In this document: piece after piece, positions 1-62,385 of the stretch | How the letters are laid out: every line of letters starts with the position of its first letter | Position numbering within the stretch: position 1 is the first letter of the stretch | Origin: Okamejei kenojei | Lineage: Eukaryota | Assembly: GCA_035221665.1 (NCBI GenBank) | Contig: CM069133.1 | Span: 56,048,001 to 56,112,000 of the forward strand | Reading direction: 5' to 3' | DNA length: 64,000 nt | Notes under the pieces: model-generated | Seen by the model: only the letters and a program-made list of their open reading frames with translations | Databases searched by the model: none | Told to the model about the DNA's origin: nothing | Made by a program: the position numbers and the translations under genes

Positions 1-410
1 GCATTGTCTACACAAACAGGCGGAGGAAATTTCATATCAATTGCCATGGGGCAGTAATGCTTAATTTCTATTTTTGATGGGACAACATGAACATGTTTTT
101 AAAATGCCTAGTTACTCCAAACCAATACAATAATTGGAGGGATGTATGATGGCTTATGGATTTTTGAAAGCCAGATTTACACTATCAGAGAGTCACATAT
201 TTGACATTTCAAATTGTGTCAAATTAATTGGTTACATCATGGGATATATATAGTTGGCTAGATGAAAACCCCTGATCATTTTGAGTTGGTTATTTGAGTA
301 GACAGGTGGATCCTTGGTTTAAAGAATGATCAAAACACCATCACCTCCACTTCTATAACATTTGCTCAGCACTGCAATTAACTTTGAGTCTAGACATTTG
401 CTCAATATCT

Positions 411-534
411 CAATATCTCTTGTTTCCCTGATCCCTGACCAGTCTGAAGAAGGGTCTCGACCCGAAACGTCGCCTATCTCCTTCGCTCCTTAGATGCTGC
501 TGCACCCGCTGAGTTTCTCCAGCTTTTTGTGTAA
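411..534 (+). mobile_element. short Penelope-like terminal fragment with 12-bp TSD
   Basis: TGCTCAATATCT flanks it at 399-410 and 535-546. The body matches the terminal repeat found next to GIY-YIG-type fragments elsewhere in the window. Confidence 0.8.
441..474 (+). ncRNA. minimal hammerhead ribozyme-like motif (Penelope type)
   Basis: CTGAAGA (444-450), extra A, stem II GGGTC-TC-GACCC, GAAA, then CGTC. Helix III is reduced to the palindrome ACGT; predicted cut after GUC at 471; stem I weak. Confidence 0.7.
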
Positions 535-929
535 TGCTCAATATCTGGAATGGGAATGCCTTATCATCATTAAATCTCAACAGGTAGAGCGAACAAAATG
601 ATGTTTGTTTACTTCTCCTGCTCCAATTCTATTCCATGATCGAAAATGTAATAAAATAATCTTGGACCTGTGGTTAGATTCCAAAGTTTTTCATTAGTGA
701 ACTTAAATCCTTGACACTTACTGCCTAAACAAATATTGGTTAGGCAGTTGCACTGACATCAAATGTCTTGACTTGTCTTGATCCTCAAATTTTCTAGACG
801 CCGGTACACCATTGTACACTCTTGTACATTACCAAAAAAAATGCCTGTTGTACAAATACTTGATCAAGGAAACCCTCATTGCTATAAATGATCTCATCAG
901 ATCAAATTCAACATGTAGAATCGAAGAAT

Positions 930-2374: not shown

Positions 2375-4090
2375 AATGAATGGATGAATGAATGAATTAA
2401 TGAATGAATAAGTTTATTGGCCAAGTATGTACACATACAAGGAATTTGCCTTGGTGCTCTGCTCGCAAGTAACAACACGACATACAGTAAACAATTAAGA
2501 ATAAAACATAAAACATTAAAACATTAAGAATAAAATATTATAGTTTAACATGTGAATGAAATAAAATACCAGAGTAAAAGGAGGCTGCAGACCTTTGGTT
2601 ATTGAGTAGAGCTACGGCTCGTGGATAAAAGCTGTTTTTATGTCTGGCTGTGGCGGCTTTGACAGTCCGGATTTGCTTTCCAGAGGGAAGTGGTTCAAAG
2701 AGTTTATGACCAGGGTGGGAGGGGTCAAAGATGACCTTACCCGCTCGCTTCCTGGCCCTTGCAGTGTACAGTTCATCAATGGAGGGAAGGTTGCAGCCAG
2801 CAACCTTCTCGGCTGATCGAACGATTCGTTACATCCTCCAGATGTCATGCTTGGTGGCTGAGGCAAACTAGACCATGATGGAGAAAGTGAGGACAGACTC
2901 TACGATGGCCATATAGAATTGGACCATCATCACCTGTGGCAGATTGTGCTTCCTCAGCTGCCGCAGGAAGGACATCCTTTGATGTGCCTTTTTGACTGTG
3001 GAGTTGATGGTGGCCCTCCATTTAAGGTCCTTGGATATGATAGTTCCCAGGAACCACCATAACCTTAAACGACTGTGATGTTGTTGATGGTGAGTGGGGG
3101 GAGGGGAGAGGGAGCTCTCCTAAAGTCTACAATCAATTCTACTGTCTTAAGAACATTGAGCTCTAGGTTGTTGTGACGGCACCAGGATGCCAGCTGCGAC
3201 ACTTCCTGTCTGCAACCAGATTCCTCCCCATCCTGGATCAGTCTAATCAGGGTTGTGTCGTCCACAAACCTGAGAAGCTTGACAGAGGAGCCTGTGGAGG
3301 TCCAGTCGTTGTAAAGAGAGTAAAGGAGATGGGGGAGGGGGGGTACACAGCCTTGCGGTGCTCCTATGTCGAGATGTGCTTTCCCAGTCTCACATGCTGC
3401 TTCCTGTCTGTCAGGAAGTTGGCGATCCACTGACAGATGGGTTCAGGCACAATCAACTGGGAGAGTTTGGAGTGTAGTAACTCTGGCACAATGCAGAGCT
3501 AAAATCCACAAACAAAATCCTTGCATAGGTCCCCTGGCAGTCTAGGTGCTGGATGATGAAGTGCAGCTAGTTGACTGCATCATCCACTAATCTATTGGCC
3601 CAGTATGCAAACTGCAGAGGGTCCAGCAGGGGGTTTATGATTTTTTTCAGCTGGGCCAGCACGTCAGTGTGACTGACCTGTAGTCATTAAAATGGCTGTG
3701 TATGATAACGGCGCCAGTTGTTCGGCACAGAGCTTGAGGGTAGAGGGGGAAACATTGTCCGGCCCTGGAGATTTCCGGCTTTTCTGTCTTCTGAATAGCC
3801 TCTCGACCTCCTCATATTCTATTGGTGGCAATGGAGAAGTGGCCAGACTGATGTTGGGCAGCAAGGAAGGGGTGGGTAGTGGACAGGGGCCAGTCTTTGC
3901 AAACTGGAGTCAGGCTGTAAGTGGGTGTTAAAATGGTGATTGGAGAAGGGTGGGTGGGAAAGGGCCCAGTCTTTGCAGACTGGAGTCAGGCTGTGAGCAG
4001 GTGTGAAGTGGTGATTGGGGAGGGGGGAGGGGGTACCAGGGTGAACTAAGATAGTAACCTTTGTTATCTTCCAGTCTTCTTGCACCTTCC
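2375..4090 (-). mobile_element. Rex1/Babar-like LINE, 5'-truncated, (TTCA)n tail
   Basis: KSPGPDNVSPSTLKLCAEQLAP, GAPQGCV, LLRFVDDTTLI, LELNVLKTVELIVDFRR; AATAAA and microsatellite tail at about 2375-2420. Confidence 0.85.
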
Positions 4091-4639
4091 CCATTTATGG
4101 AGGACAGGAAGAGTATTGAAGCTTGCCTTCAACCTCCATGCTTCCCCCCTTAGAAACTGAGGAGATGTTCATACTATGCTATGTGATATGTTTATCTACG
4201 CTATGTGATATGTACCTCCTGTTTATCAATTTTCACCACTCATAATCACTCCTCTCTTTCATTTCACTGAAATTAAGATAACATTCGTCCTCTTTGGTAT
4301 ATGCCAATACTAAGTACTCATTTAGTATTCCAGCTCACATTCTGCCTTTACACAGGCACCACCTTTATCCTAATTTGTTCCACATCTCTACACTTATTTA
4401 CTATTGAGAGCCTTTCTAAAACTTTTAGGTTCTTTCTTACGTTAAAAATCGTTCTTTCCATTTCTCTCTACTGGTCTGAGTTTTCATAACATCATAGAAT
4501 TATAATGCAGCCAAATGAGTCCTTTCAATCCACCTTATCTCAGCTGACCCTGATGCCATATAACCATATAACATATAACACCATATAACAGTGCCGATCT
4601 ATGCTGAACACATTTGCCCACAATAGGTCCACAAAATTC

Positions 4640-4815
4640 ACCATCTTTGTAACCTAAAACTACTTTCTTTTTCTCCCTTTCCCAGTTCAGAGGAAACGTC
4701 TTTGACCTGAAATGCTAACTCGGTTTCTCTTTCCACAGTTGCTTCTGACCTGCGGAGTGTTTCCAGTATTTTCTGTTTTTGTTTCAGATTTCCTGCATCT
4801 GCTGAGTTTTTGGTT
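4640..4815 (+). mobile_element. older Penelope-like terminal repeat (family B)
   Basis: Degenerate hammerhead-like core followed by ccacagttgcttctgacctgcggagtgtttccag tail, related to the other termini. Confidence 0.55.
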
Positions 4816-4819
4816 GTTG

Positions 4820-5041
4820 GTCTGTGGAATTCTCTGCCTCAGAGGGCGGTGGAAGCAGGTTCTCTGGATGCGTTCAAGAGAGAGCTAGATAGGGCTCTTA
4901 AAATAGCGGAGTCAGGGGATGTGGGGAGAAGGCAGGAACGGGGTACTGATTGGGGATGATCAGCCATGACCACGTTGAATGGCGGTGCTGGCTCGAAGGG
5001 CTGAATGGCCTACTCCTGCACCTATTGTCTATTGTCTATTG
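4820..5041 (+). mobile_element. CR1 3' end, (TCTATTG)n tail
   Basis: ctgtggaattctctgcctcagagg...gaatggcctactcctgcacctattgtctattgtctatt. Confidence 0.9.
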
Positions 5042-5239
5042 CCCTTATCCCTTTACACCATCTAAGTTCCTGTCCAGAAATCTTTGAAATATAGTTGTAT
5101 CTGTTGTCCAAATGCAATTTACACATTGCAATTGTTTTCTTCTTACTTCTTGGCTCAGTTTACTATATTCAGAATAGTTCTCCCTGAAATGATTAACTGG
5201 TACCTTGCACCATGATACTACTCGCATTTCTTGACACTG

Positions 5240-6060
5240 ATTTATTATTCTCATGTGCACCGAGATACAGTGAGAAACATTGGTTGCATGCTATCCATTC
5301 AGATCAAATCATATGTATACAATCGAATTGTACACAATAGGTAGTACAAAGAAAAATACTAATGTAGAATGTTGTCTTACAGCGTTACAACCTTACATTT
5401 GGAAAGAAAAGTTCCAACAGCTGCATGAGGTTGGTTGGAAGATTGGGACTACAACCTAGCTTATGGGAGAACCATTCATTGGTCTTATAACTAAAGGGAA
5501 TGAGCTGTTCCTGAATCTGGTGGTATGTGCTTTCAAGTTTTTGTATCTTCTGCCCGACGGAAGTGGAGAGAAGAGGGAATGAGTGGGATGAGGGAATGAT
5601 CAAACTACATGTAAAACTCTATGAAATTTATTGCGGTCTTGAGCAGGGCTGTTCCCAAACTAAATTTTGATGCAACCCAATAGTATGCTTTCTACTGTGT
5701 ATCTACAGAAGTTGGCAAGAGTTGTTTGAAATTTGGCAAAAGTTCATCTCCTGCAGATATAGTGGCATTGGTGTGCTTTTTGGCTATAACTTCAACATGG
5801 TTGGACAAATATTTACACCACAGAACTTGAAACTCTCAAGCACTTTCACTTTGGCACCATTGACACTGATTGGGGCATGTACTCCATCATGCTTTCTGAA
5901 GTGAATAACTAGCGATTTCAGCTTGCTGACATTGAAGAAGAGGTTGTCGTCTTGACACCATGTTACTAAGTTCTCCATATCCTTCCTGTACTCTGTTACA
6001 TCATTGTTCATGACCCAGTCCACTGCATTGATATAATCTGGAAACTTGTTGAAGGAGTTA
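5240..6060 (-). mobile_element. Rex1-like LINE 3' fragment
   Basis: WCQDDNLFFNVSKLKSLVIHFRK...ESFKFCGVNI. Confidence 0.7.
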
Positions 6061-6469
6061 GCCTAAAGTTTACTCACAGTCGTGAGACCCTTGTCTTCCA
6101 GGATAGTTTTGTTGGTTCCTTACCTTTTAATTTGTGGAATGTATATGGACTGTACCTGATACAACTAGTCCTCATAGATGACTCATGTCTCATAGAAGTA
6201 GAGGTACCAGGTAGAACTGCTGCCTCGTAGCTCCAGTAACTTAATTCTAACCTCCAGTGCTCCCTGTATGGAGTTTGCATGTTCTTCTTGTGGCACTATG
6301 GATTCCTACCATCCCATCACATGGGGGCTTCAGTTTCCTTCAACATCCTGAAGGTCCATTTCTTGGTAATCCTTATCTATCTTTTCTATTACTAAATACT
6401 CTTGTCCTTCTAACTGATCATTCAGCTAAACACTGCCCAACACACATTTTTGAAGTAAAAATAAGCCTT

Positions 6470-6860
6470 GAGGTTATATAGCACTTGCCACAGCCTCAGG
6501 GCATCCCAAATGTATTTTCTCTCATTTAAGTGCTTTCGAATTGCAGTGAACAGGACAGCCAATCTGCCCATGGCAAGCTCCATGGAAAACAGTGCAACAA
6601 TTACCAGAAAAAACTGTTTCTGTAATGATACCTAGGAGTAAATATTAGCCAGCCCACTAACTGAGATTGGTGGAATATTTTACATATGAACAACAAGGTA
6701 AATTGGGCCTCGTTAACATCTTATGCCAAAAAAGTCACCTCTGGTAATATAGTATAACCTAGTGATGGACAAACGTCAACCTGGAGTCTTGTGTGCAAGT
6801 CATTGGAGTGGGATAGGAAGCTTTAGTACCCTGAGTCAAAGATCAACTGAACCATGGTTG
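6470..6860 (-). mobile_element. ancient Deu-domain SINE remnant (SacSINE1-like)
   Basis: Diverged resemblance to the recalled Deu-SINE consensus (gggcctcgttaacatctt...tgtgcaagtcattggagtggga); similar remnants at about 295-560 and 44430-44590. Confidence 0.45.
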
Positions 6861-6987
6861 GCATCTATAAATTAAATGAAATTTTGTAAGGGTCAGAAAA
6901 CGGAATTTGCAGCCAAAGGAAGAAAGTAAATAAAATCTCAGTATTTTTCAACATTAAGCCAAGTGGTCTTTTTGGATGATTGATTAT

Positions 6988-7201
6988 AGGGCCTGTCCCA
7001 CTTTCACAACCTAATTCACGACCTCTGACGAGTTTGCCCTTGACTCGTACTCGCAGCATGGTCGTCATGAGGTCGTAGGAGGTCGTAGGTAGGTCGTGAT
7101 GCTAGTCGTTGGTACTCGTGGCATCAAGTAGGTCGAGGCGTTTTCCTAGCCTGATGAAAAATGTCCATTAGTAAAAAGGTCGTGAAAGTGGGACAGGCCC
7201 T
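6988..7201. mobile_element. PIF/Harbinger-type MITE, 214 bp
   Basis: Perfect 20-bp TIR AGGGCCTGTCCCACTTTCAC; flanks TAT/TAA (TWA-type target). Confidence 0.85.
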
Positions 7202-8304
7202 TAAGCCTTCTGGGACACTAAGATCAGAAAATTAAGTGAATTATGTCCTTATCACTATCAGTTCATTATTGCAGGAGATGTTTAAAAATACATTAGGGAT
7301 AATTGAGACGAAAATCAAAATATATTCAAATTAGTTGTTGCGATGCAATTGAAATATCAGAGTACATTTTAACTTGCTCCATAGCTGTTAAACTGCTGCT
7401 GCAAATTGGCCACTTATTGCAAAAACTACTGTAAACTCCTTATACTGAATTCTGCGGAATGACTGCTACTCCATGCTAAGTCCCATTCACCCATGTGGTT
7501 GCTTATTGACACCAACTCCCCTTTGGCAATGCCTCAAATATGAAACATTAATTCTTCTCTTTGAAATACATTGTGACCTGCTCCCTATCTCACGGAGCCT
7601 TGTCTATTCTTAAAATCCACTGAGAGTCCTCTATTCTAATTCTAGTATTTAGTGCATTGACTATTTTATTTATGTCACTAATGCTGGCAGTGGAGTTTCC
7701 AATGCCCATTCTCTACCTAACCTTTTTGTCTTTCTCCTTCATCGTCCTCTAGGTTACCTAACTATTCACTTTGACCTGGTATTTGTCCTCCTATTTTCTC
7801 TTTGTGTCAGATTTTGTCATGGACCTCTTTTAAATTACTTCTGATATTTTACCATGGGACAAATGCCATATCAATATTGTTCCTGAGATTTCTTGAAGCT
7901 CTGTTCTCCCTTGTTCTTATTTTTGGGTTGCTTAATTTAGGAAGGCAGACAAGGCTAAGAGACTTTCGCACACTCTCGGCTCTTGGGACAGAGTAAATAT
8001 GGTGATGTGACTTTAATCCTTATATTTACAGTACAAAGAGTTAAAGATCACTGACTAATGTGCACAGTTAAAAGCACAACCTCATGTGTTGCCACCGTGT
8101 GATACCTATTTTTGCAGGAGCACAGCTCAGTGTATCTCTGCAATGATTGCATTGGTCACCAAGCTGGTCTCACACCCAATCAATGTGATCAGGATTGCTG
8201 TTCCCTCAGCCAGGGTATTTAGCTTGATAAGGCAACTTCACCACCATTGAAGTAAACCATTTTCGTGCAGTGTTTGGAAGCAAAGCCAATTAGCATTTTT
8301 TGCA

Positions 8305-8492
8305 TATCCTTTCTTCATATCTTTCATTCATTGTTCTTTATCTCTCTACATCAGCGTCTATATCTCTCATTTCTCATTTCCCTTTTCCCTGACTAGTCTG
8401 AAGTAGTGTCTCGACCCAAAATGTCACCCATCCCTTCGCTCCGTAGATGCTGCATGTCCCGCTGAGTTACTCCAGATTTTTGTGTCTATCTT
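8305..8492 (+). mobile_element. Penelope-like terminal fragment with decayed hammerhead motif
   Basis: ctgaagtagtgtctcgacccaaaatgtc at 8398, then gatgctgcatgtcccgctgagttactccag. Confidence 0.75.
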
Positions 8493-9754
8493 TAATTTAT
8501 ATTTACTTGGGATCAAGCAGTTAGCATGTGGCAGCCTCCACTCAGCAGTTCAAAGGCATTAAAGTTCTGTGACTGGGATTGCAGTGTAACTGAGATACTA
8601 ACATCTGGTGATGTAGCTGCCATTATGGATTAGAATAAAGAAGTACAGCAAAGAAACAGGCACTTTGGGCTGCAATGTCTGCGCTAAGCATAATGCCAAA
8701 CTAACCTAATCTCTTCTGCATCCATATGTTTCATATCCCCCCAATTCTTGAGTCAATCTTAAAGCCACTTAAACACATCCACTCACTATATCTGCTTCCA
8801 CCACCGCCCCTGGTTGCATATTCCATGTAGCTATCACTCTCAGTGTAAACAACATGGTCCAATCAGATTGTGGAGGAATTCAAAATAATAACTGAAATTC
8901 CCACCAAAAATGAGTCCTAAATCTAAATGATAAATGATAAGAGACATTTTCTTCTCTGTTTCAGCTGCTAGAATAGAAAAGTGATAAATAATGGCATTAT
9001 CTCACCCCCAGCACCATTAAGTCCAACGCACAGCTTCACGTTTGTTGAAATTGCAATTTTTCTTACTCGGGTGTGTGTGATAAACATGATTAATGTGGTT
9101 TTTGTTATTTTCAGATAACCTTCAAAAGTAGTAAAAGTCATCTTCTGATTAATCCTGACCTCACCAATTTCCAGTTACTTTCAAATCACAGATAACAAAG
9201 CCAGCAGTGTGCAAATAGGCAGCTGACCTGACTCTTCTTCACAATTAATTGCAGCCATTCGATTACATTGCCCTGTCAGATGTCTTTAGTCACACAAGCA
9301 TTGTCTGATGTCTCGACCAATCTCAACAGTTTACATAAAATACCCCTTTCTCTCTTCTGTGCTTACACTAGGGAATAAACATGCCAACAATAGCAATGTA
9401 TTACTTGCAAAGAGGATTTGTGACAAGCCATGAAATGTCTGACTTTGGTCATGCTGCAATATTAACTCATAAATCTTATGATACGTGCACCGTCTTCGTA
9501 TTGTTTGTATATTTAAAAAAAATCTCTAATGTGGGCTGTAAATGTTTGCACCTTCTCCTAATATATGTTGTTGAAAATCCTCAGAAACATTCTTTGAAAA
9601 TAAGTAAGAAGAGATTGATGTTTTAGGATTTCTTCTGGTGCTACATTTGTGGTGTGAACCTAAAGAGGTAGTCCAAGTCCACCTCAAGTTGACTGCTCTA
9701 CCTTGACATGGAGCAATTGAACCTTTAAACATGCGTCCACCCCCAAAGGGGCAA

Positions 9755-13359: not shown

Positions 13360-14060
13360 GGAGATGGTGCATGGTTGCATGTGACCTAACTCTGGTATAG
13401 GAGGAGGCTGAGCCTACAGATAAGAATGAGAATGGGAAGGGAAATTCAAGTGGTTAGTAACCGGAAGCTTCAGTTGTCCCTAGTGGGCTGAGTGACATGC
13501 TGTGTGGGCTTGGTCTCTGGTTAATTGCAACCCAATGGCATAAACATAGAAGTCTCCAATTTCAGGTAACTGGCATCCTCTCCTCCACCCTTCCCCTGAT
13601 CTATCTGGATTGCCTCATGCACACCTTTCTCCCCATTAGCCTGCCCTCCCCCATCACCCAGATCCTTTCCCTTCCACCTCCTCCTCCACTCCTCTTTCTT
13701 CAAATCTAAACAAAATCACTCCCTCTGCTTCTGCATTTCACTCCTCACTTTCCCTTCTTGTCAGATTCCGCCATCTGGAGCACTTTTGTCTTCTCCAACC
13801 CGTGAGACTATCTCCACCCTACCCCCCCCCCCCCCCCCCCCCCCCCCCGACTCATCTCCCATTCAATGCCTCATTACCTGGATTCACCTATCACTTACCA
13901 GCTCTTGCCCACCCTTTCCACCCACCGTTTTCCACCAACTATCTCAACCTCCTCTACTTCATCAGTTTGGAGAACCCATTTTAATTTTATTTTCCATTTT
14001 CCTCCACAGATACCGCTTGACCCACTGAGTTCCGCCAGCAGTTATTTTCTTTTGTGCTCA
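13360..14060 (+). mobile_element. Penelope-like fragment with an inverted 5' segment
   Basis: 13370-13500 is an inverted endonuclease-region piece; tgcaacccaatggcataaacatagaagtctccaatttcagg (LQPNGINIEVSNFR), a C-rich UTR and a terminal repeat follow. Confidence 0.6.
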
Positions 14061-15463: not shown

Positions 15464-15595
15464 TCAGTCTGAAGAATGATCTCGATCTGAAACGTCACCC
15501 ATTCCTTCTATCCTGAGATGCTGCCTGAGCCACTGAGTTACTCCAGAACTTTGTGGATTTTTGGTAAAATAACATCAGCAGTTCCTTGTGCCTAA
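15464..15595 (+). mobile_element. Penelope-like terminal fragment with near-intact hammerhead core
   Basis: CTGAAGA (15469), at, GATC-TC-GATC, t, GAAACGTC, accc. Confidence 0.75.
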
Positions 15596-22630: not shown

Positions 22631-23587
22631 TATTATTTCTTTTCTTCTTGTAAAGTGCTGGTGACCAAATGTATACCAGTAGTAAGAGAGGAGCAGAAGA
22701 TGTTTTTGAGATGTCCTCTAGATGCAAAGTCACGGAGTCATGGAGTGGTTCATTTTTCATTTTATAGTAATCTATGCCAAGACAAATTTATCAGTATTAA
22801 ACAGGTATAGAATTGTCCATATTTTCTTAATTTAAAACTGTGCATGAAATTCGGTTTGCACTATCGGTGAATCTATAACAATTTCCCTACGGGCAAAGAA
22901 ACTATCAGCTATTCCCAAATTCCTATTCTCTGCGTGACTGACAGGATTGAAGAAAACCATTTATTCACAATCTCCAGGCTATAAGCTTTAGAGAAAGCCA
23001 GGATAAGTCCCAAGGCAGGTTTGCAACACCTGATTACAGAGTTCATTTTCAATCTGTCAGACCAACAACCAAGTTCATTTTTCAACTCCTGAAATCAAGC
23101 CGCTATTGGAGCACAGCTCAGTCATCAGTTGAAAAATGAAGCCAACCTATTGCCAAAAGTTGAAGCGTTACACATAGACCAAGTTGCTGCACATGTTATT
23201 GGACGCAGATTTTATATTTCACTTTCTTGTATTTGGCAACGATTAGGAATCGACAAATAATGAGAAACAGCAGCTTAGGAAAGTGAAGCAGCCCATTTCA
23301 AACCTTGTTCTTCCTTGGCAGTGATAAGAATTCACCATCACATTCCTGGTACAGAAATGCTGAAGAAACCAGTGGAAGTCAGTAAAAGGTCAGAGAAACA
23401 TTTAAAAGATCTGGAAAGTTTGTCGGTGGAAAAATCGAGCAAAAATTAATATATATCTACCGTATTTGGTTAGATTACCATGTCAACTTTAGACGTGTGT
23501 TAGAATAATATTTTCAAAAAATGAAGAACAAGCTGAGAAATTAAGTATTTGGTTCAACCGGGTAGTACAGTTGTTTATGCTCACTTA

Positions 23588-23685
23588 AATCTGAAGAGGG
23601 ATCCCGACATGAAATGTCACCTTTCCATCTTCTCCAGAGATGCTGCTTGACCCGCTAAGTTACTCCAGCACTTTGAATCTTTTTT
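23588..23685 (+). mobile_element. Penelope-like terminal fragment
   Basis: ctgaagagggatcccgacatgaaatgtcacc...gagatgctgcttgacccgctaagttactccagc. Confidence 0.7.
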
Positions 23686-24637: not shown

Positions 24638-25390
24638 CATAGAAACATAGAAATTAGGTGCAGGAGTAGGCCATTCGGCCCTTCGAGCCTGCACCGCCAT
24701 TCAATATGATCATGGCTGATCATCCAACTCAGTATCCCGTACCTGCCTTCTCTCCATACCCTCTGATCTCCTTAGCCACAAGGGCTACATCTAACTCCCT
24801 CTTAAATATAGCCAATGAACTGGCCTCCACTACCCTCTGTGGCAGAGAGTTCCAGAGACCCACCACTCTTGTGTGAAAAAAGTCCTTCTCATCTCGGTCC
24901 TAAAGGATTTCCCCCTTATCCTTAAGCTGTGACCCCTTGTCCTGGATCTCTCCAACATCGGGAACAATCTTCCAGCATCTAGCCTGTCCAACCGCTTAAG
25001 AATTTTGTAAGTTTCTATAAGATCCCCTCTCAATCTCCTAAATTCTATAGAGTATAAACCGAGTCTATCCAGTCTTTCTTCATAGGACAGTCCTGACATC
25101 CCAGGAACCAGCCTGGTGAACCTTCTCTGCACTCCCTCTATGGCAATAATGTCCTTCCTCAGATTTGGAGACCAGAACTGTACGCAATACTCCAGGTGTG
25201 GTCTCACCAAGACCCTATACAACTGAAGTAGAACCTCCCTGCTCCTATACTGAAATCCTTTTGCTATGAAAGCTAACATACCATTCACTTTCTTCACTGC
25301 CTGCTGCACCTGCCTGCCTACTTTCAATGACTGGTGTACCATGACACCCAGGTCACGCTGCATCTCCCCTTTTCCTAATCGGCCACCAAA
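24638..25390 (-). mobile_element. young CR1 3' fragment, (TTTCTATG)n tail
   Basis: ORF 24830-25438 (LYRVLVRPHLEYCVQFWSP); closely matches 58000-58742 in inverse orientation. Confidence 0.95.
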
Positions 25391-26074
25391 TGGTACCATT
25401 GGTAGAAAGGACAAATGGTAAAATGGTTTTCTAAGCACCGGAAGAAAAGTCCTGGCTGTCAGCCAGTTAGAAACAACTCCTTCACAGATAAAACAAGCAT
25501 CAAAGAATTCAAAGCAAATTGGGTTATTGGTGATTCATTGCAAAAATGTAATATCCACACTTACATAACCATTGTAATGTTAAATATATGAAATGCTGTA
25601 CATTTTTAGAGTTTGTGAAACACTTTGGGTCCTTTCAAGGTGCTTCTAAGTATATACTGCCAAGGACTGAATAAACCAAGTTGTTTGAGAAACGCCATTG
25701 CTCTCTGAGATTTTCTTTGTGCATTGTCACAATCAGAGCTGTAGTTAAGAGGGCACTGAGCCCCATATCAAAGCCAGATTCAGGGTGCAGGTCAAACGCA
25801 CAATTTCCTCCAAGATAGGATAATAAGGAGATATACATTTAGGTTATAACTAGGAGAAACAATAGGGAAATCAGATGGAGAAGTAGGATAATTATCCGTA
25901 TTTGATGAATTAAGTCTGTTCTTGTATATTTCATTGTTGTGGCTCATGTTTCGTTGTGAAAGTGGAGTTGAAAATCAGGGTGCCATTCTAATAAACCCAA
26001 TGTTTTCATTTCACTGCCCGAATTTAATTACTTCTGCAGTTGGAAACCTCTATATTGGGTTATTACAAATGGCT

Positions 26075-36818: not shown

Positions 36819-38368
36819 TACCCCTTGAACTTTTCCACATAGACCAACATAAAGTGGTGCATAATTGTGAAGTGGAAGGAAAATGATACATGGTTTCCAA
36901 ATTTTATTACAAATAAAAAACTGAAAAGTGTGGCGTGCAAAAAGTATTCAGCCCCCCTGAGTCAATACTTTGTAGAACCACCTTTCGCTGCAATTACAGC
37001 TGCAAGTCTTTTGGGGGTATGTCTCTACCAGCTTTGCACATCTAGAGATTGAAATTTTTGCCCATTTTTCTTTGCAAAATAGCTCAAGCTCAGTCAGATT
37101 GGATGGAGAGCATCTGTGAACAGCAATTTTCAAGTCTTGCCAGAGATTCTCAATTGGATTTAGGTCTGGACTTTGACTGGGCCATTCTAACACATGAATA
37201 TGCTTTGATATAAACCGTTCCATTGTAGCTCTGGCTGTATGTTTAGGGTCGTTGTCCTGCTGGAAGGTGAACCTCTGCTCCAGTCTCAAGTCTTTTGCAG
37301 ACTCTAACAGGTTTTCTTCCAAGATTGCCCTGTATTTGGCTCCATCCATCTTCCCATCAACTCTGACCAGCTTCCCTGTCCCTGCTGAAGAAAAGCATCC
37401 CCATAGCATGATGCTGCTACCACCATGTTTCACAGTGGGGATGGTGCGTTCATGGTGATGTGCAGTGTTAGTTTTCCGCCACACATAGCGTTTTGCATTT
37501 AGGCCAAAAACTTCAATTTTGGTCTCATCAGACCAGAGCACCTTCCTCCACATGTATGCTGTGTCCCCCACATGGCTTGTGGCAAACGGCAAACGGCAAA
37601 CGGGACTTCGTATGGCTTTGTTTCAACAATGGCTTTCTTCTTGCCACTCTTCCATAAAGGCCCGATTTGTGGAGTGCACGACTAATAGTTGTCCTGTGGA
37701 CAGATTCTCCCTCTGGAGCTGTGGATCTCTGCAGTTCCTCCAGAGTTACCATGGGCCTCTTGGCTGCTTCTCTGATCAATGCTCTCCTTGCCTGGCCTGT
37801 CAGTTTAGGTGGACGGCCATGTCTTGGTAGGTTTGCAGTTGTGCCATACTCTTTCCATTTTCGGATGATGGATTAAACAGTGCTCCGTGAGATGTTCAAA
37901 GCTTGGGATATTTTTTTATAACCTAACCCTGCTTTAAACTTCTCCACAACTTTATCCCTGACCTGTCTGGTGTGTTCCTTGGGCTTCATGATGCTGTTTG
38001 TTCACTAATGTTCTCTAACAAACCTCTGAGGCCTTCACAGAACAGCTGTATTTATACTGAGATTAGATTACACACAAGTGGACTCTATTTACTAATTAGG
38101 TGACTTCTGAAGGCAATTGGTTGCACTTGATTTTATTTAGGGGTATCAAAGTAAAGGGGGCTGAATACTTTTGCACGCCACACTTTTCAGTTTTTTATTT
38201 GTAAAAAAACTTGAAAACCCTGTATCATTTTCCTTCCACTTCACAATTATGCACCACTTTGCGTTGGTCCATCACACAAAATACCAATAGAATATATTTA
38301 TGTTTGTGGTTGTAACGTGACAAAATGTGGAAAAGTTCAAGGGGTATGAATACTTTTGCAAGCCACTG
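36819..38368 (-). mobile_element. Tc1 transposon, IR/DR type (Passport-like)
   Basis: TA|CAGTGGCTTGCAAAAGTATTCA end at 38368; about 210-bp TIRs with inner and outer AAAAGTATTCA direct repeats; the left TIR has an internal deletion of about 54 bp and its tip is in the gap. Confidence 0.95.
36962..37989 (-). pseudogene. Tc1 DD34E transposase pseudogene
   Basis: MKPKEHTRQVRDKVVEKF...GRPPKL...WSDETK...QDNDPKH...SPDLNPIENLW. Stop at 37873-37875, extra GGCAAAC at 37581-37601, frameshift near 37013. Confidence 0.95.
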
Positions 38369-50462: not shown

Positions 50463-50620
50463 GTTTAGGAAGGAACTGCAGATGCGGGTTTAAACCGAAG
50501 GTAAACACAAAATGCTGGAGTAACTCAGCGGGACAGACAGGTCTCGACCCAAAACTTTACCTATTCCTTTTCTCCAGAGATGCTATCTGACCCAGTGAGT
50601 TACTCCAGCTTTTTGTGTCG
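50463..50620. mobile_element. palindromic Penelope-terminus derivative (family A)
   Basis: acacaaaatgctggagtaactcagcggg ... ggtctcgacccaaaac ... cccagtgagttactccagctttttgtgt. Confidence 0.7.
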
Positions 50621-52979: not shown

Positions 52980-54091
52980 AGAAACATAGAAAAATAGGTG
53001 CAAGAGTAGGCCATTCGGCCCTTCGAGCCTGCACCGCCATTCAATATGATCATGGCTGATCATCCAACTCAGTATCCCTTACCTGCCTCCACTCCTTCTT
53101 AAATATAGCCAATGAATTCGCCTCAACAACCTTCTGTGGCAGAGAATGCCAGAGATTCACCAATCTCTGTGTGAAAAATGTCTTTCTCATCTCGGTCCTA
53201 AAAGATTTCCCCCTTACCTTTAAACTGTGACCCCTTGTCCTGGACTTCCCCAACATCAGGAACAATCTTCCTGCATCTAGCCTGTCCAACCCCTTAAGAA
53301 TTTTGTAAGTTTCTATAAGATCCCCCCTCAATCTTCTAAATTCTAGAGAGTACAAGCTGTGTCTATTCAGTCTTTCTTCATATGAAAGTCCTGCCATCCC
53401 AGGAATCAGTCTGGTGAACCTTCTCTGTACTACCCCTATGGCAAGAATGTCTTTCCTCAGATTTGGAGACCAAAACTGTACGCAATACTCCAGGTGTGAT
53501 CTCTGCAGTAGAACCTCCCTGCTCCTATACTCAAATCCTTTTGCTATGAATGCTAACATACCATTCGCTTTCTTCACTGCCTGCTGCACCTGCATGCCTA
53601 CTTTCAATGACTGGTGTACCATGACACCCAGGTCTTGTTGCATTTCCCCTTTCCCTAATTGGCCACTATTCAAATAATAGTCTACTTCCTGTTTTTGCCA
53701 CCAAAGTGGAAAACCTCACATTTATCCACATTATACTGAATCTGTCATGCATTTGCCCACTCACCCAGCCTATCCAAGTCACCTTGCAACCTCCTAGCAT
53801 CCTCCTCACAGCTAACACTGCCCCCAAGCTGCGTGTCATCCGCAAACCTGGAGATGTTGCATTCAATTCCCTCGTCAAAATCATTAATATATATTGTACA
53901 TAGCTGGGATCCCAGCACTGAGCCTTGCGGCACTCCACTAGTCACTGCCTGCCATCCTGAAAAGGACCCGTTTACTCCTATTCTTTGCTTCCTGTCTGCC
54001 AGCCAGTTCTCTATCCACATCAATACTGAACCGCAAATACTGTGTGCTTTAAGTTTGTATACTAATCTCTTGTGTGGGACCTTGTGGAAAG
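52980..54091 (-). mobile_element. CR1 (host copy), 3' half
   Basis: FHKVPHKRLVYKL...SGVPQGSVLG...FADDTQL; tail atagaaacatagaaa on the plus strand. Confidence 0.95.
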
Positions 54092-54443
54092 AGGCCCAGG
54101 AGCAGTTGCAGTGGGAGGAGCGACGTCCGACCTGTAAGTTTAAAAACTCGCTCGCGGGGCTTGTTTTCACAGAGGCCCAGGAGCGGTTGCAGTGGGAGGA
54201 GCAACGTCCGACCTGTAAGTTTAAAAACTCGTTCGCAGGGCTTGTTTTCACAGAGGCCCAGGAGCGGTTGCAGTGGGAGGAGCAACGTCCGACCTGTAAG
54301 TTTAAAAATTCGTTCGCGGGGCTTGTTTTCACAGAGGCCCAGGAGCGGTTGCAGTGGGAGGAGCGACGTCCGACCTGTAAGTTTAAAAACTCATTCGCGG
54401 GGCTTGTTTTCACAGAGGCCCAGGAGCGGCTGCAGTGGGAGGA
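54090..54443 (+). repeat. 81-bp tandem monomers in the CR1 5' UTR, about 4.4 copies
   Basis: Units start at 54090, 54171, 54252, 54333, 54414; few substitutions; CpG-rich. Confidence 0.95.
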
Positions 54444-54506
54444 ACCTAAATCCGTAACGTTCCATTCACAGCTCGCAGTTCAAAACAAGTGGGCTTGAGA
54501 AAGCTG

Positions 54507-55884: not shown

Positions 55885-58644
55885 CTGAAGGCTTTGTGTC
55901 TCAATGCGAGGAGCATTCGTAATAAGGTGGATGAGTTGAATGTGCAGATAGCTATTAATAATTATGATATGGTTGGGATCACGGAGACATGGCTCCAGGA
56001 TGACCAAGGCTGGGAGCTGAACATCCAGGGATATTCAATCTTCAGGAGGGATAGACAGAGAGGAAAAGGAGGTGGGGTAGTGTTGCTGGTTAGGAGATTA
56101 ACGCAATAGAAAGGAATGACATTAGCTTGGAGGATGTGGAATCGATATGGGTGGAGCTGCGAAACACTAAGGGGAAGAAAACGCTAGTGGGTGTTGTGTA
56201 CAGGCCACCTAACAGTAGTAGTGGAGTTGGGGATGGCATCAAACAGGAAATTAGAAATGCGTGCAACGAAGGTAAAACCATTATAATGGGTGACTTCAAT
56301 CTACATATAGATTGGGTGAATCAAATTGGCAGGGGTGCTGAGGAAGAGGATTTCTTGGAATGTATGCGGGATAGTTTTTTATACCAACATGTAGAGGAAC
56401 CAACAAGAGAGCAGGCTATTCTAGACTGGGTATTGAGTAATGAGGACGGGTTAGTTAGCAGCCTTGTTGTACGTGGCCCCTTGGGCAAGAGTGACCATAA
56501 TATGGTTGAGTTCTTCATTAGGATGGAGAGTGACATTGTTAATTCAGAAACACGGGTCCTGAATTTAAAGAAAGGTAACTTTGAGGGTATGAGACGTGAA
56601 TTGGCCAAGATGGACTGGCAATTGATTCTTGAAGGGTTGATGGTGGATATGCAATGGAAGGCATTTAAAGACTGCATGGATGAACTGCCTTAAGGTAGCG
56701 CATCCGTGGATAACAAGGGAAATCAGGGATAGTATCAAAGCAAAGGAAGAAGCGTACAAATTAGCCAGAAAAAGCAGCCAACCAGGGGATTGGGAGAAAT
56801 TCAGAGACCAACAGAGGAGGACAAAGGGCTTAATTAGGAAATGGAAAATGGAGTATGAAAGAAAACTGGCAGGAAACATAAAAACTGACTGCAAAAGTTT
56901 TTATCGATATGTGAAGCGCAAAAGATTAGTTAAAACAAATGTAGGTCCCTTGCAGTCAGAAACGGGTGAATTGATCATGGGGAACAAGGACATAGCAGAC
57001 CAATTGAATAACTACTTTGGTTCTGTCTTCACTAAGGAAGACATAAATAATTTGCCGGAAATAGCAGGGGATCGCGGGTCAAATGAGATGGCGCAACTGA
57101 GTGAAATCCAGGTTAGCCGGAAAGTGATGTTAGGTAAATTGAATGGATTAAAGGCCGATAAATCCCCAGGGCCAGATAGGCTGCATCACAGGGTACTTAA
57201 GTAAGTAGCCCCAGAAATAGCATATGTCTTAGTGATAATTTTTCAAAACTCTTTAGACTCTGGAGTAGTTCCTGAGGATTGGAGGGTAGCTAATGTAACC
57301 CCACTTTTTAAAAAGGGAGGGAGAGCGAAAACGGGGAATTACAGACCAGTTAGTCTAACATCGGTAGTGGGGAAACTGCTAGAGTCAGTTAATAAAGATG
57401 GGATAGCAGCGCATTTGGAAAGTGGTGAAATCATTGGACAAAGTCAGCATGGATTTACGAAAGGTAAATCATGTCTGACGAATCTTATTGAATGTTTTGA
57501 GGATGTAGCTAGTAGAGTGGATAAGGGAGAACCAGTGGATGTGTTATATCAGGACTTTCAAAAGGCTTTCGACAAAGTCCCACACAAGAGATTGGTATAC
57601 AAACTTAAAGCACACGGTATTGGTGGTTCAGTATTGATGTGGATAGAGAAATGGCTGGCAGACAGGAAGCAAAGAGTAGGAGTGAACGGGTCCTTTTCAT
57701 GATGGCAGGCAGTGACTAGTGGGGTGCCGCAAGGCTCAGTGCTGGGACCCCAGCTATTTACAATATACATTAATGATTTGGACGAGGGAATTAAATGCAA
57801 CATCTCAACGTTTGCGGATGACACGAAGCTGGGGGGCAGTGTTAAATGTGAGGAGGATGCTAGGAGGCTGCAGGATGACTTGGATAGACTGGGTGAGTGG
57901 GCAAATGCATGGCAGATGCAGTATAATGTGGATAAATGTGAGGTTATCCACTTTGGTGGCAAAAACAGGAGACTATTATTTGTATGGTGACCGATTAGGA
58001 AAAGGGGAGGTGCAAGGAGACCTGGGTGTCATGGTACACCAGTCATTGAAAGTAGGCATGCAGGTGCAGCAGGCAGTGAAGAAAGCAAATGGTATGTTGG
58101 CATTCATAGCAAAAGGTTTTGAGTACAAGAGCAGGGAGGTTCTATTGCAGTTGTACAGGGTCTTGGTGAGGCCACACCTGGAGTATTGCGTACAGTTTTG
58201 GTCTCCTAATCTGAGGAAAGACATTCTTGCCGTAGAGGGAGTACAAAGAAGGTTCACCAGACTGATTCCTGGGATGGCAGGACTTCCATATGAAGAAAGA
58301 CTGGATAGACTCGGCTTGTATTCGCTGGAATTTAGAAGATTGAGGGGGAATGTCATAGAGACTTACAAAGTTCTTAAGGGGTTAGACAGGCTAAATCCAG
58401 GAAGATTGTTCCTGATGTTGGGAAGTCCAGGACAAGGGGTCACAGTTTAAGGATAAGGGGGAAGTCTTTTAGGACTGAGATGAGAAAATCGTTTTTCACA
58501 CAGAGAGTGTTGAATCTGTGGAATTCTCTGCCACAGAAGATAGTTGAGACCAGTTTGTTGGCCATATTTAAGAGGGAGTTGGATGTGGCCCTTGTGGCTG
58601 AAGGGATCAGGGGGTATGGAGAGAAGGCAGGTACAGGATACTGA
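55885..58644 (+). pseudogene. CR1 ORF2 (APE endonuclease plus reverse transcriptase)
   Basis: LNARSIRNK, GITETW, VYRPP, MGDFN, SDHNM, SPGPD, NYRPVSLTS, GVPQGSVLGP, FADDTKL. Several stops and frameshifts, plus a deletion of about 40 bp near 56688. Confidence 0.95.
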
Positions 58645-60469: not shown

Positions 60470-62385
60470 GGATATTGATAAAGGCAGGATGAGGTAGACA
60501 TGGACTTTAATAAAACTTCTAATAATGTCCTGCACGGTAGACTGGTCCTGAAGTTTACAGCACATGGGGCCTGACACGTGTGAGTAAACTGAATTTTAAA
60601 TTAACTTGGTGATAGAAGGCAGAAAATTGCTGTGGGGAGTTGTTCACTGACTGCAAATCTATAATTAATGGTAATCTGAAGGGATTGGTACAAGGAAATT
60701 TGTTGTTTGTCAAGTATATTAATGATTTGGATGAAAATGCAAGTGGTCTGATGAGTAAATTTGCTGATATCACGAAAATTGGTGGAGTTGTAAATAGTTA
60801 AGAAGATTGTGTAATTTACAAAGGGACATAAATCAGTTGGATAGCTGGGTGGAGCAGTGGCAAATGGAAATTAATCCAGCCAACTGTGAGGCAATGCATT
60901 TGCAGATATTGAAGGTAAACACATAAAGCTGAAGTAACTCAGCGGATCCGGCAGCATCTCAGAAAAGGAATAGGGTCTAGACCCTTCTTCAGACAGAGTC
61001 AGGGGAAAGTGAACTGAGAGATATGAAAAGGTACATAGAACAAATTGATGAAAGATATACAAAAAGACAGATCTAAACCAGCAATGATGATTTAGGAAAG
61101 GTGGGGCCCACAATGGTCCATTGTTGCCTGTGGGAAAGGTGACAACGAGTAATACAAACAGTGAAGCTCAGCAGGATGACAGTGAAACTAGTGCAATGAC
61201 TAGGGAGGGGGAGGGCTGTAGAGAGAGGGGATGGAAGGGTTAGTTTGTTAGAGAAATCAATATTCCTACCGCTGGGTTGTAAGCTGCCCAAGCGAAATAT
61301 AAGGTGCTGTTCCTCCAATTTGCATGTGGCATCACTCTGACTGTGGAAGAGGCCCAGTATAGAAAGGTCAGTATGGGAATGGGAAGGGGAGTTAAAATGT
61401 TTGACAACTGGGAGATTGGCCAAGGAGGACTGAGAGAAGGTATTCAGCGAAACGATCGCCCAGTCTGCGATTGGTTGCGCCGATATATAGGAGTCCACAC
61501 CTGGAACAGCGGAAAAAGTAGATGAGGTTTGAGAAGGTGTAAGTGAACCTGTGCTCTACCTGAAAGGATTGTTAGCGTTCCCGGACAGAGTTGTGAGAGG
61601 AAGTATTGGGACAGGTATTGAATGCTCATAGGACATATTACAGTAAATGGCAGGGACCTTAGGAATGCTGACATTCAGAGAGATATTCACTGAAGATCTT
61701 CATGTCATCTTCATAGTCCACTGTACAATAGTGACATAGGTAGATAGGGTAGTTATAAAGGAATTTGGGATGCTTGCCTTCATAAATTGAGGCACCACTT
61801 TTACTAATTGGGATGCAACATTGCAGCTATACAAAACGGTCATGGGGCCGCACTTGGAGCATTTATGTACATTTCTGGTCATCACACTACAGGACGGATG
61901 TAGTCTCATTTGAAAGAGTGAAGAACAGATCCACCAGGATTTTGTCTGGAATAGCAGGCTTTAGTTACAAGGAGATATTAGATAGGCTGGATCTGGAGGA
62001 GACTGATGGGTGATCTTATTGAGGTCTATAAATTCTGAGAGGCACAGATAAGGTAGATCGTCATTTTTTTTTCCCGGGGAGGGGGGCAGGGGAGTAAGGG
62101 GGGGGGAGTCTAAAACTAAAGACCACAGGTTGAAGTTGAGAGGGGAGGAATGTGAAGGAGATCTGAAGGGGTCGTGTTTCACAATTAGGTTGTTGATTAC
62201 ATGGAGCCAGAGGAGATGGGAGAGGCAAAAACAATCGCAAAGTTGACGAGGCATTTAGATGGGTACGTGGATGTGAAAGAAGTGGAGGTGTTTAGGCTTA
62301 ATGTGGGCAATGAGGTTGGTATAGACAGGCATTGTGGATAAGCTTGTTAGAAGAGGCTATTTCTGTCTTGTGCACCTCTATGACT
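60470..62385 (+). mobile_element. old CR1 ORF2 3' part, interrupted
   Basis: YINDLDE...KFADITKIGG at 60715-60790; resumes at about 61625 and runs to a CR1 tail at about 62385. Confidence 0.75.
60915..61620 (-). mobile_element. Penelope-like element 3' part (GIY-YIG region)
   Basis: LPVVKHFNSPSHSHTDLSILGLFHSQSDATCKLEEQHLIFRLGSLQPSGRNIDFSN; upstream C-SRCGLLYIG motif; terminal repeat at 60915-61000. Confidence 0.85.

What the first reader, a model, noticed from the sequence alone, without database searches (positions are those of the whole stretch)
399..546. 124-bp mobile unit that is little more than a hammerhead ribozyme, with a perfect 12-bp TSD
Seen: TGCTCAATATCT flanks 411-534. Inside is CTGAAGA-A-GGGTC(TC)GACCC-GAAA-CGTC, i.e. 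both hammerhead core boxes around a perfect stem II with a GUC cut triplet. Helix III has no loop, only the palindrome ACGT, so it could form only between two copies. A second copy at 15469 keeps both boxes and shows a paired G-C to A-T change in stem II (GATC/GATC). Known: Penelope-like elements carry minimal hammerheads thought to act as dimers. Inference: either an extreme 5'-truncated Penelope insertion or a retrozyme-like non-autonomous family in elasmobranchs. Stem I is only about 2 bp, so activity is uncertain.
Basis: partly seen in the sequence, partly recalled or inferred. Interest (0 to 1): 0.7.

Follow-up and report, generated by a model that had tools for sequence, protein, structure and literature searches.

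The report
Penelope retrotransposon stub with minimal hammerhead
This is a short inserted stub of a very abundant Penelope-type jumping gene in what is likely a shark or ray; it carries the tiny, predicted self-cutting RNA motif already known from such elements, so it is largely ordinary, although most of its sister copies begin at one fixed base that likely marks the capped start of the element's RNA.

Summary
Real, mostly ordinary. The 12-bp duplication is exact and both hammerhead boxes are present. But 411-534 is not a discrete 124-bp unit. It is 99% identical to the pseudo-LTR (pLTR) end of a Penelope-like element (PLE) with an RT + GIY-YIG ORF and a Neptune-type Cys linker. A 31-mer of it has 47,435 exact matches in the genome. 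Stem II is 4 bp with a 4-nt loop. The 'compensatory' change at 15469 is a singleton in a decayed copy.

A discrete short class does exist, but it starts about 30 nt further in. 57 of 101 copies begin at window 437-451 (11 of 22 in fresh DNA). Non-inverted copies starting at 441 are mostly preceded by a G that the element lacks (11 of 16), and a lone G recurs at 441 in three outside runs. This suggests run-off copying to a capped RNA 5' end lying 3 nt before the hammerhead core. Short and long copies share the same variants, so an independent retrozyme is unlikely. Earlier notes of this scan found the same family on other DNA.

The parts
399..410 (+). Left copy of the 12-bp target-site duplication
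   Evidence: Identical to 535-546. TSDs of 8-25 bp were found in 25 of 101 sister copies.
411..418 (+). Junction duplication of the last 8 nt of the TSD; 413-418 also matches the element (microhomology), so the 5' edge is ambiguous (413-419)
   Evidence: 403-410 = 411-418; master differs at 411-412; same kind of junction at L079.
413..534 (+). pLTR piece of a Neptune-type PLE, without the 33-nt tail
   Evidence: 99.2% to L066:7296-7416, 205 bp after the stop of a 678-aa RT + GIY-YIG frame; the 3' end falls in the 120-129 class.
437..451 (+). Zone where most sister copies begin; 441 (A) is the inferred capped transcription start, in an Inr-like context (consensus recalled)
   Evidence: 58 of 101 starts (57 after a flank control), 11 of 22 in fresh DNA; G before 441.
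444..473 (+). Minimal type-I hammerhead: core box 444-450, bulge A451, stem II 452-455/460-463, GAAA 464-467, palindrome 467-470, predicted cut after 471, 2-bp stem I (442-443/472-473)
   Evidence: Sequence; 144,875 core-pattern matches against 529 control; identical between old and young majority sequences.
492..533 (+). Predicted stem-loop at whose base the inner RT start lies (501-505/529-533, 508-511/520-523); 492-500 pairs with the tail in tailed copies
   Evidence: RNA folding only (z = -1.7 for the tailed form, not significant without the tail).
535..546 (+). Right copy of the TSD
15465..15555 (+). Older decayed copy; starts exactly at the short-class boundary (unit 30) and carries a tail beyond 15555
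8369..8485 (+). Older copy that extends about 50 nt further upstream
50505..50618 (.). Head-to-head pair of copies; the minus arm carries the tail, the plus arm does not
60919..61024 (-). Older, longer 5'-truncated copy reaching the EN-coding end
23571..23675 (+). Older decayed copy (further ones at 14002, 14395, 15990, 31274, 35570, 40686)

Best explanation
411-534 is a TSD-flanked stub of the hammerhead-bearing pLTR of a Neptune-type Penelope-like retrotransposon, likely written into the genome by that element's own reverse transcriptase and GIY-YIG endonuclease and likely dead on arrival. Shown: identity to the pLTR, the parent ORF, tandem masters in which unit plus tail run straight into the next ORF, two 3' end classes (unit 120-129 and 159-161) and a sharp 5' peak. 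Inferred: the tandem master is transcribed from a capped start at window 441. The protein primes cDNA internally at one of two sites (as shown in vitro for the anole element PAc). Priming in the RNA's 5' pLTR runs off the capped end after about 95 or 130 nt and gives the dominant short class with an extra G. Priming in the 3' pLTR gives randomly 5'-truncated longer copies. The finding's copy starts 22-28 nt upstream of 441, so it belongs to the second group, joined with microhomology and an 8-nt duplication. The hammerhead is a conserved cis-element of the master RNA, predicted to cut only as a dimer or with protein help. Uncleaved RNA is the usual template.
For: Parent element: 30 of 30; CX2-5CXXC linker in 102 of 105 homologues with the EN motif; C-x4-C-xx-C is the commonest form in the EN-anchored loci. 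Tandem masters: 9 of 30 loci show the unit in the same orientation at the master's spacing upstream of the ORF (L174 read through). 5' peak: 58 of 101 in 15 nt against 0.26 expected from background; only 2 of 37 non-inverted short copies share upstream sequence with another locus; replicated in 11 of 22 and 41 of 114 older copies; the listed 'loose before' ends in outside contigs centre on unit 30-32. Cap G: 10 of 11, 4 of 6 in a test written down beforehand (p = 0.047), 11 of 16 pooled without inverted joins; all 5 listed joints resuming at 441 in three runs have a single G between the sides. The same signature was attributed to cap copying in L1/SVA (PMC3287187, passages). Uncleaved template: all 80 hammerhead-anchored copies run past the cut site; 1 of 123 young copies starts exactly at it. 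Same masters: short and long copies share variants at equal rates.
Against: No RNA ends were observed; only assembled contigs were available, and their RNA status is a guess. The G counts are small; nine start positions were examined, and over all of them G was not significantly enriched (19 of 46 against 14.6, p = 0.11). Many short copies start at unit 27-30, upstream of the proposed start, or at 32-41, so the start is heterogeneous or blurred by microhomology. The clade was called by motif, not by a tree with reference elements, and the Pfam hits are below gathering score. The hammerhead fold is not favoured: the dimer is -6.7 kcal/mol against -19.7 for the cofold minimum. No empty site was found.
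Confidence: 0.85

Rival explanations
1. The short copies are an independent non-autonomous, retrozyme- or SINE-like family with its own master copies, mobilised in trans by the PLE protein through hammerhead-cleaved or circular RNA.
For: A discrete class with fixed ends and TSDs makes up more than half of copies. A few same-strand tandem pieces exist (3 of 101). pLTR sequences can be mobilised in trans (PMC3846280, passages), and tandem retrozymes derive from pLTRs, including in one chondrichthyan (bioRxiv 2026.07.22.740005).
Against: No private variants in 58 short against 30 long copies. Ends do not sit at the cut site. Tandem arrays are rare. The finding's own boundaries are not those of the class.
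Confidence: 0.07
2. The 5' peak is an RT stall or template-switch hot spot at the hammerhead during copying of the 3' pLTR, not an RNA 5' end; all copies are ordinary 5' truncations.
For: The peak is 15 nt wide. Stem II and the predicted pairing of the core box with the tail could slow RT. 20 of 58 short copies are arms of inversions.
Against: The peak lies upstream of the hairpin. It appears with and without the tail. It does not explain a G specifically before 441.
Confidence: 0.2
3. The fixed 5' edge is a splice acceptor (polypyrimidine tract, branch-like CTGAC, CAG at 440-442), as in D. virilis Penelope, where an intron ends at helix I.
For: Sequence context at 419-442; PMC4209133 describes this arrangement in D. 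virilis.
Against: No shared upstream exon: 35 of 37 non-inverted short copies have unique flanks. No GT..AG joint among those listed (33 joints not shown). Many copies keep the CAG.
Confidence: 0.07

Closest known systems
Minimal hammerheads (min-HHR) in pLTRs of metazoan PLEs, including fish Xena, Poseidon and Neptune (Cervera and De la Pena 2014, PMC4209133; parts 1-2 of 4 read)
   Same: Core boxes, unpaired nucleotide before stem II, G10.1-C11.1 pair, palindromic 15.2-16.2 without helix III, mostly solitary genomic copies from truncated PLEs; a 2-bp helix I is described for D. virilis.
   Different: Stem II is only 4 bp (7-8 bp in Schistosoma families). About 145,000 intact cores, against 4,000-9,000 reported for coelacanth and Xenopus with a different descriptor. 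The motif is nearly invariant within the genome.
PAc (Poseidon, Anolis carolinensis) internal initiation of reverse transcription (Frangieh et al. 2024, PMC11167929; parts 1-2 of 4 read)
   Same: Two RT start sites about 33 nt apart defining the tail; tail continuous with the element body in tandem copies; HHR cleavage not needed for insertion.
   Different: Here the hammerhead lies in the 5' UTR, about 135 nt before the first ATG, not across the start codon. The element has a Neptune-type linker. The parts read do not describe a fixed 5' end or cap G of short copies.
EN+ PLE insertion architecture: pLTR, inverted 5'-truncated copy, 30-40-bp tail at one end (Craig et al. 2021, PMC8557442; Arkhipova et al. 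2013, PMC3846280; passages)
   Same: Partial tandems, head-to-head inversions, tail on one arm, TSDs of about 8-10 bp or microhomology joins, Inr-like motif in the pLTR.
   Different: Quantified here: the tail is on exactly one arm in 14 of 14 inverted pairs, and more than half of all copies share one 5' start zone.
Non-LTR retrozymes (bioRxiv 10.64898/2026.07.22.740005; parts 1 and 3 of 5 and passages)
   Same: Derived from PLE pLTRs, carry a type-I hammerhead, reported in one chondrichthyan.
   Different: Defined as tandem repeats with a hammerhead in each unit; this copy and nearly all sampled sisters are solitary or head-to-head.

Membership tests
EN+ Penelope-like element | Single ORF with RT followed by C-terminal GIY-YIG endonuclease | tested here: met
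   L066 678-aa frame with RVT_1 (E 1e-6) and GIY-YIG (E 0.002), both under gathering score; 1437 homologues at E<=1e-20. The window copy itself is non-coding.
EN+ Penelope-like element | Partial-tandem arrangement forming pLTRs | tested here: met
   9 of 30 loci; L174.
EN+ Penelope-like element | Optional 30-40-bp tail and inverted 5'-truncated partner | tested here: met
   3' ends at unit 120-129 or 159-161; 14 head-to-head pairs.
Neptune clade | CX2-5CxxC linker between RT and EN (PMC8557442) | tested here: met
   shared with Nematis according to the paper.
Neptune clade | RT phylogeny with reference elements | not tested
   No named reference PLE proteins were at hand.
Minimal type-I hammerhead | Core boxes, bulge, G10.1-C11.1, palindromic helix III stub, NUH | tested here: met
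Minimal type-I hammerhead | Covariation in stems | tested here: inconclusive
   No excess of double changes; only one-sided changes that keep pairing (U-A to U-G in stems I and II); region unchanged between old and young majority sequences (0 of 32 against 10 of 62 positions, p about 0.014, optimistic because adjacent changes were counted singly).
Minimal type-I hammerhead | Self-cleavage (dimer or protein-assisted) | not testable with these tools
   Folding does not favour the active form.
Non-LTR retrozyme | Tandem units each with a hammerhead | tested here: not met
   Solitary here; 1 tandem dimer (L114) and 2 partial pieces in 101.
Non-LTR retrozyme | Own lineage separate from the autonomous element | tested here: not met
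   Shared variants; sample of 88 copies.
Non-LTR retrozyme | Circular RNA made by self-cleavage | not testable with these tools
   No raw RNA reads were served.

The most novel reading that the evidence does not exclude
More than half of this family, roughly 27,000 young copies (57/101 x 47,435), are 'strong-stop'-like cDNAs: the PLE enzyme primes inside the 5' pLTR of its capped mRNA and runs off the cap, copying it as a G. The hammerhead core therefore sits 3 nt behind the cap, which explains the 2-bp stem I and makes it a candidate decapping switch of the element's mRNA. The two RT start sites are used one per target strand in inverted insertions (14 of 14).
Probability: 0.55. Interest if true: 0.5.

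Novelty: new member of a known kind. Interest (0 to 1): 0.3.

Why it matters
As a single locus it matters little: it is one of tens of thousands of dead stubs. As a family it is a large natural record of PLE mechanism. If the cap reading holds, it maps the transcription start and both RT start sites from genome sequence alone. It also places the hammerhead, whose role in PLEs is open according to PMC8557442 and PMC11167929, at the cap, which gives a direct test (decapping or translation control). The young family has near-intact RT-EN frames and suits an assay like the one used for PAc.

Tried and rejected
Rfam scan: no hammerhead hit. PDB search with the ORF: none. Apparent clustering of 5' ends at 411 among the hits: rejected as search bias, because 440-534 alone yields no seeds, so hits were chosen by rare words in 411-440. 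Stem-II covariation from the copy at 15469: rejected. Hammerhead-cut RNA as template: rejected; 4 of 101 starts at unit 63-65 and 1 of 22 at 62 are not clearly above background. Empty-site search in four runs: flanks not covered, no verdict. RNA evidence: contigs only, depth not interpretable. Spliced leader exon: none found. DNA search seeded on the short unit: empty. Literature: searches listed no paper on this elasmobranch family or on cap-G starts of short PLE copies (listings only; subscription papers are not held). Lunse et al. (PMC5785218) is not held and was seen only through a review passage. The text supplements of PMC11167929 gave no hits for my terms; its Fig. S2 (genomic ends) could not be seen and may already show a 5' peak. 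Supplements of the bioRxiv preprint could not be seen.

Full report
Coordinates: 'unit' position = window position minus 410.

1. The observation. 399-410 and 535-546 are identical, about 1e-5 by chance. Inside are the core box (444-450), A451, stem II (452-455/460-463), GAAA (464-467), the ACGT palindrome (467-470) and GTC (469-471), with a predicted cut after 471. Stem I is 2 bp. The loose core pattern occurs 15 times in the window against 6.4 expected, and 13 homologous stretches lie in the window. Rfam does not recognise the motif. 411-418 duplicates 403-410; the master reads differently at 411-412, and L079 shows the same kind of junction. The element's own 5' edge is therefore 413-419.

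2. What it belongs to. Close genomic relatives run on both upstream and downstream of the 124 bp. Upstream lies a GIY-YIG frame. All 30 loci found with that EN DNA carry the unit about 230 bp downstream. L066 has an open 678-aa RT-linker-EN frame with the unit 205 bp after its stop at 99.2% identity. The four most identical named protein relatives in the list are from Mobula, Chiloscyllium, Rhincodon and Hypanus (63-73%), which fits an elasmobranch host. The CX2-5CXXC linker that marks Neptune and Nematis elements (PMC8557442, passages) is in 102 of 105 homologues with the EN motif and is the commonest form in the 30 EN-anchored loci. In 9 of 30 loci found with the ORF's 5' part, the unit lies upstream in the same orientation at the master's spacing; in L174, read through, unit and tail run straight into the ORF, with the first ATG near unit 196. 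This is the known partial-tandem pLTR. A 31-mer has 47,435 exact matches (control 0), and the core pattern has 144,875 (control 529).

3. Ends. I took the first 100 listed matches on contig C1 (101 anchors in those loci). 3' ends fall at unit 120-129 or 159-161, matching the two internal RT start sites and tail of PAc (PMC11167929). 5' ends: 58 of 101 at unit 27-41, 30 further upstream and spread over more than 1,400 nt, and 13 downstream, 11 of them arms of inversions. The background predicts 0.26 in that 15-nt zone. A flank control removed one copy of a sibling subfamily, leaving 57; 35 of 37 non-inverted short copies have unique flanks. The peak was replicated in 600 kb from three other contigs (11 of 22), in older copies (41 of 114, noisier) and in outside contigs. 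The finding's own start is not the peak: 2 of 101 copies start between unit -10 and 15. The apparent cluster at 411 was search bias.

4. Mechanism. Copies starting at unit 31 (A441) are preceded by G where the template has C: 10 of 11 (nine positions examined; over all positions G was not significantly enriched, p = 0.11), 4 of 6 in a test noted beforehand, and 11 of 16 pooled after removing 6 inverted joins. In three outside runs, all five listed joints that resume at 441 have one G between the sides (410 rows not shown). Such a G was attributed to copying of the m7G cap in L1 and SVA insertions (PMC3287187, passages). PLE transcription starts in the pLTR (PMC2377424, passages; review PMC6765202). 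I infer a capped start at 441. Priming in the 5' pLTR then runs off the cap and gives the short class; priming in the 3' pLTR gives random truncations such as this copy. Short and long copies share variants at equal rates, so they come from the same masters. All 80 hammerhead-anchored copies run through the cut site, so uncleaved RNA is the usual template, as for PAc. In 14 of 14 head-to-head pairs exactly one arm has the tail (p = 6e-5 against 0.5), a strict form of a described pattern.

5. Is the ribozyme real? The anatomy matches the published min-HHR (PMC4209133). Unit 30-61 is unchanged between old and young majority sequences, while 10 of the next 62 positions differ, which suggests selection in the masters. 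There is no two-sided covariation: both sides changed in 6, 1, 4 and 2 old copies per pair against 3.4, 1.3, 2.3 and 1.6 expected, and the variant at 15469 is 1 of 124. The monomer does not fold as a hammerhead, and the dimer form is 13 kcal/mol above the cofold minimum. Activity is untested. PAc's hammerhead needed its protein, and 8 of 9 Xenopus retrozyme dimers did not cleave. A solitary stub is unlikely to cut host RNA.

6. Novelty. The locus is a new member of a known kind. The retrozyme membership features tested were not met. The family-level cap signature is the only part I did not find in print (searches; listings only; Fig. S2 of PMC11167929 not seen). Earlier AI notes of this scan (read after most of my analysis) report the same family in this and other genomes, and two note the sharp start. 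They are leads, not support. Verdict: interest 0.3.

Noticed in passing
G000 C1, 14 loci (L075-L145): In every head-to-head pair one arm ends at the inner RT start (unit 120-129) and the other carries the tail, suggesting coordinated use of both sites on the two target strands.
   Followed up: partly
window 474-478 joined back to 440-441; L115, L188: Same-strand template jumps recur in which the upstream piece ends 3-7 nt past the predicted hammerhead cut, followed by a G and a restart at 441. The offset from the cut site is unexplained.
   Followed up: no
L128, L224, L213, L202, L197: A sibling subfamily shares the unit from about position 30 onward but has a different upstream pLTR, i.e. a chimeric boundary at the inferred transcription start.
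   Followed up: partly
L174:488-620: In tailed RNA, the end of the tail is predicted to pair with the hammerhead core box and could hold it inactive (z = -1.7).
   Followed up: no
L174:541-714: A 57-codon upstream ORF begins inside the unit and overlaps the main ORF's first ATG out of frame.
   Followed up: no
window 36948-37622 (-): 224-aa frame that looks like a Tc1-type DDE transposase remnant (name from recall, not scanned).
   Followed up: no
window 24830-25534, 53050-54479, 57716-58450 (-): Several fragments of a CR1/L2-type LINE reverse transcriptase (name from recall), with an 81-bp tandem repeat inserted at 54090-54443.
   Followed up: no
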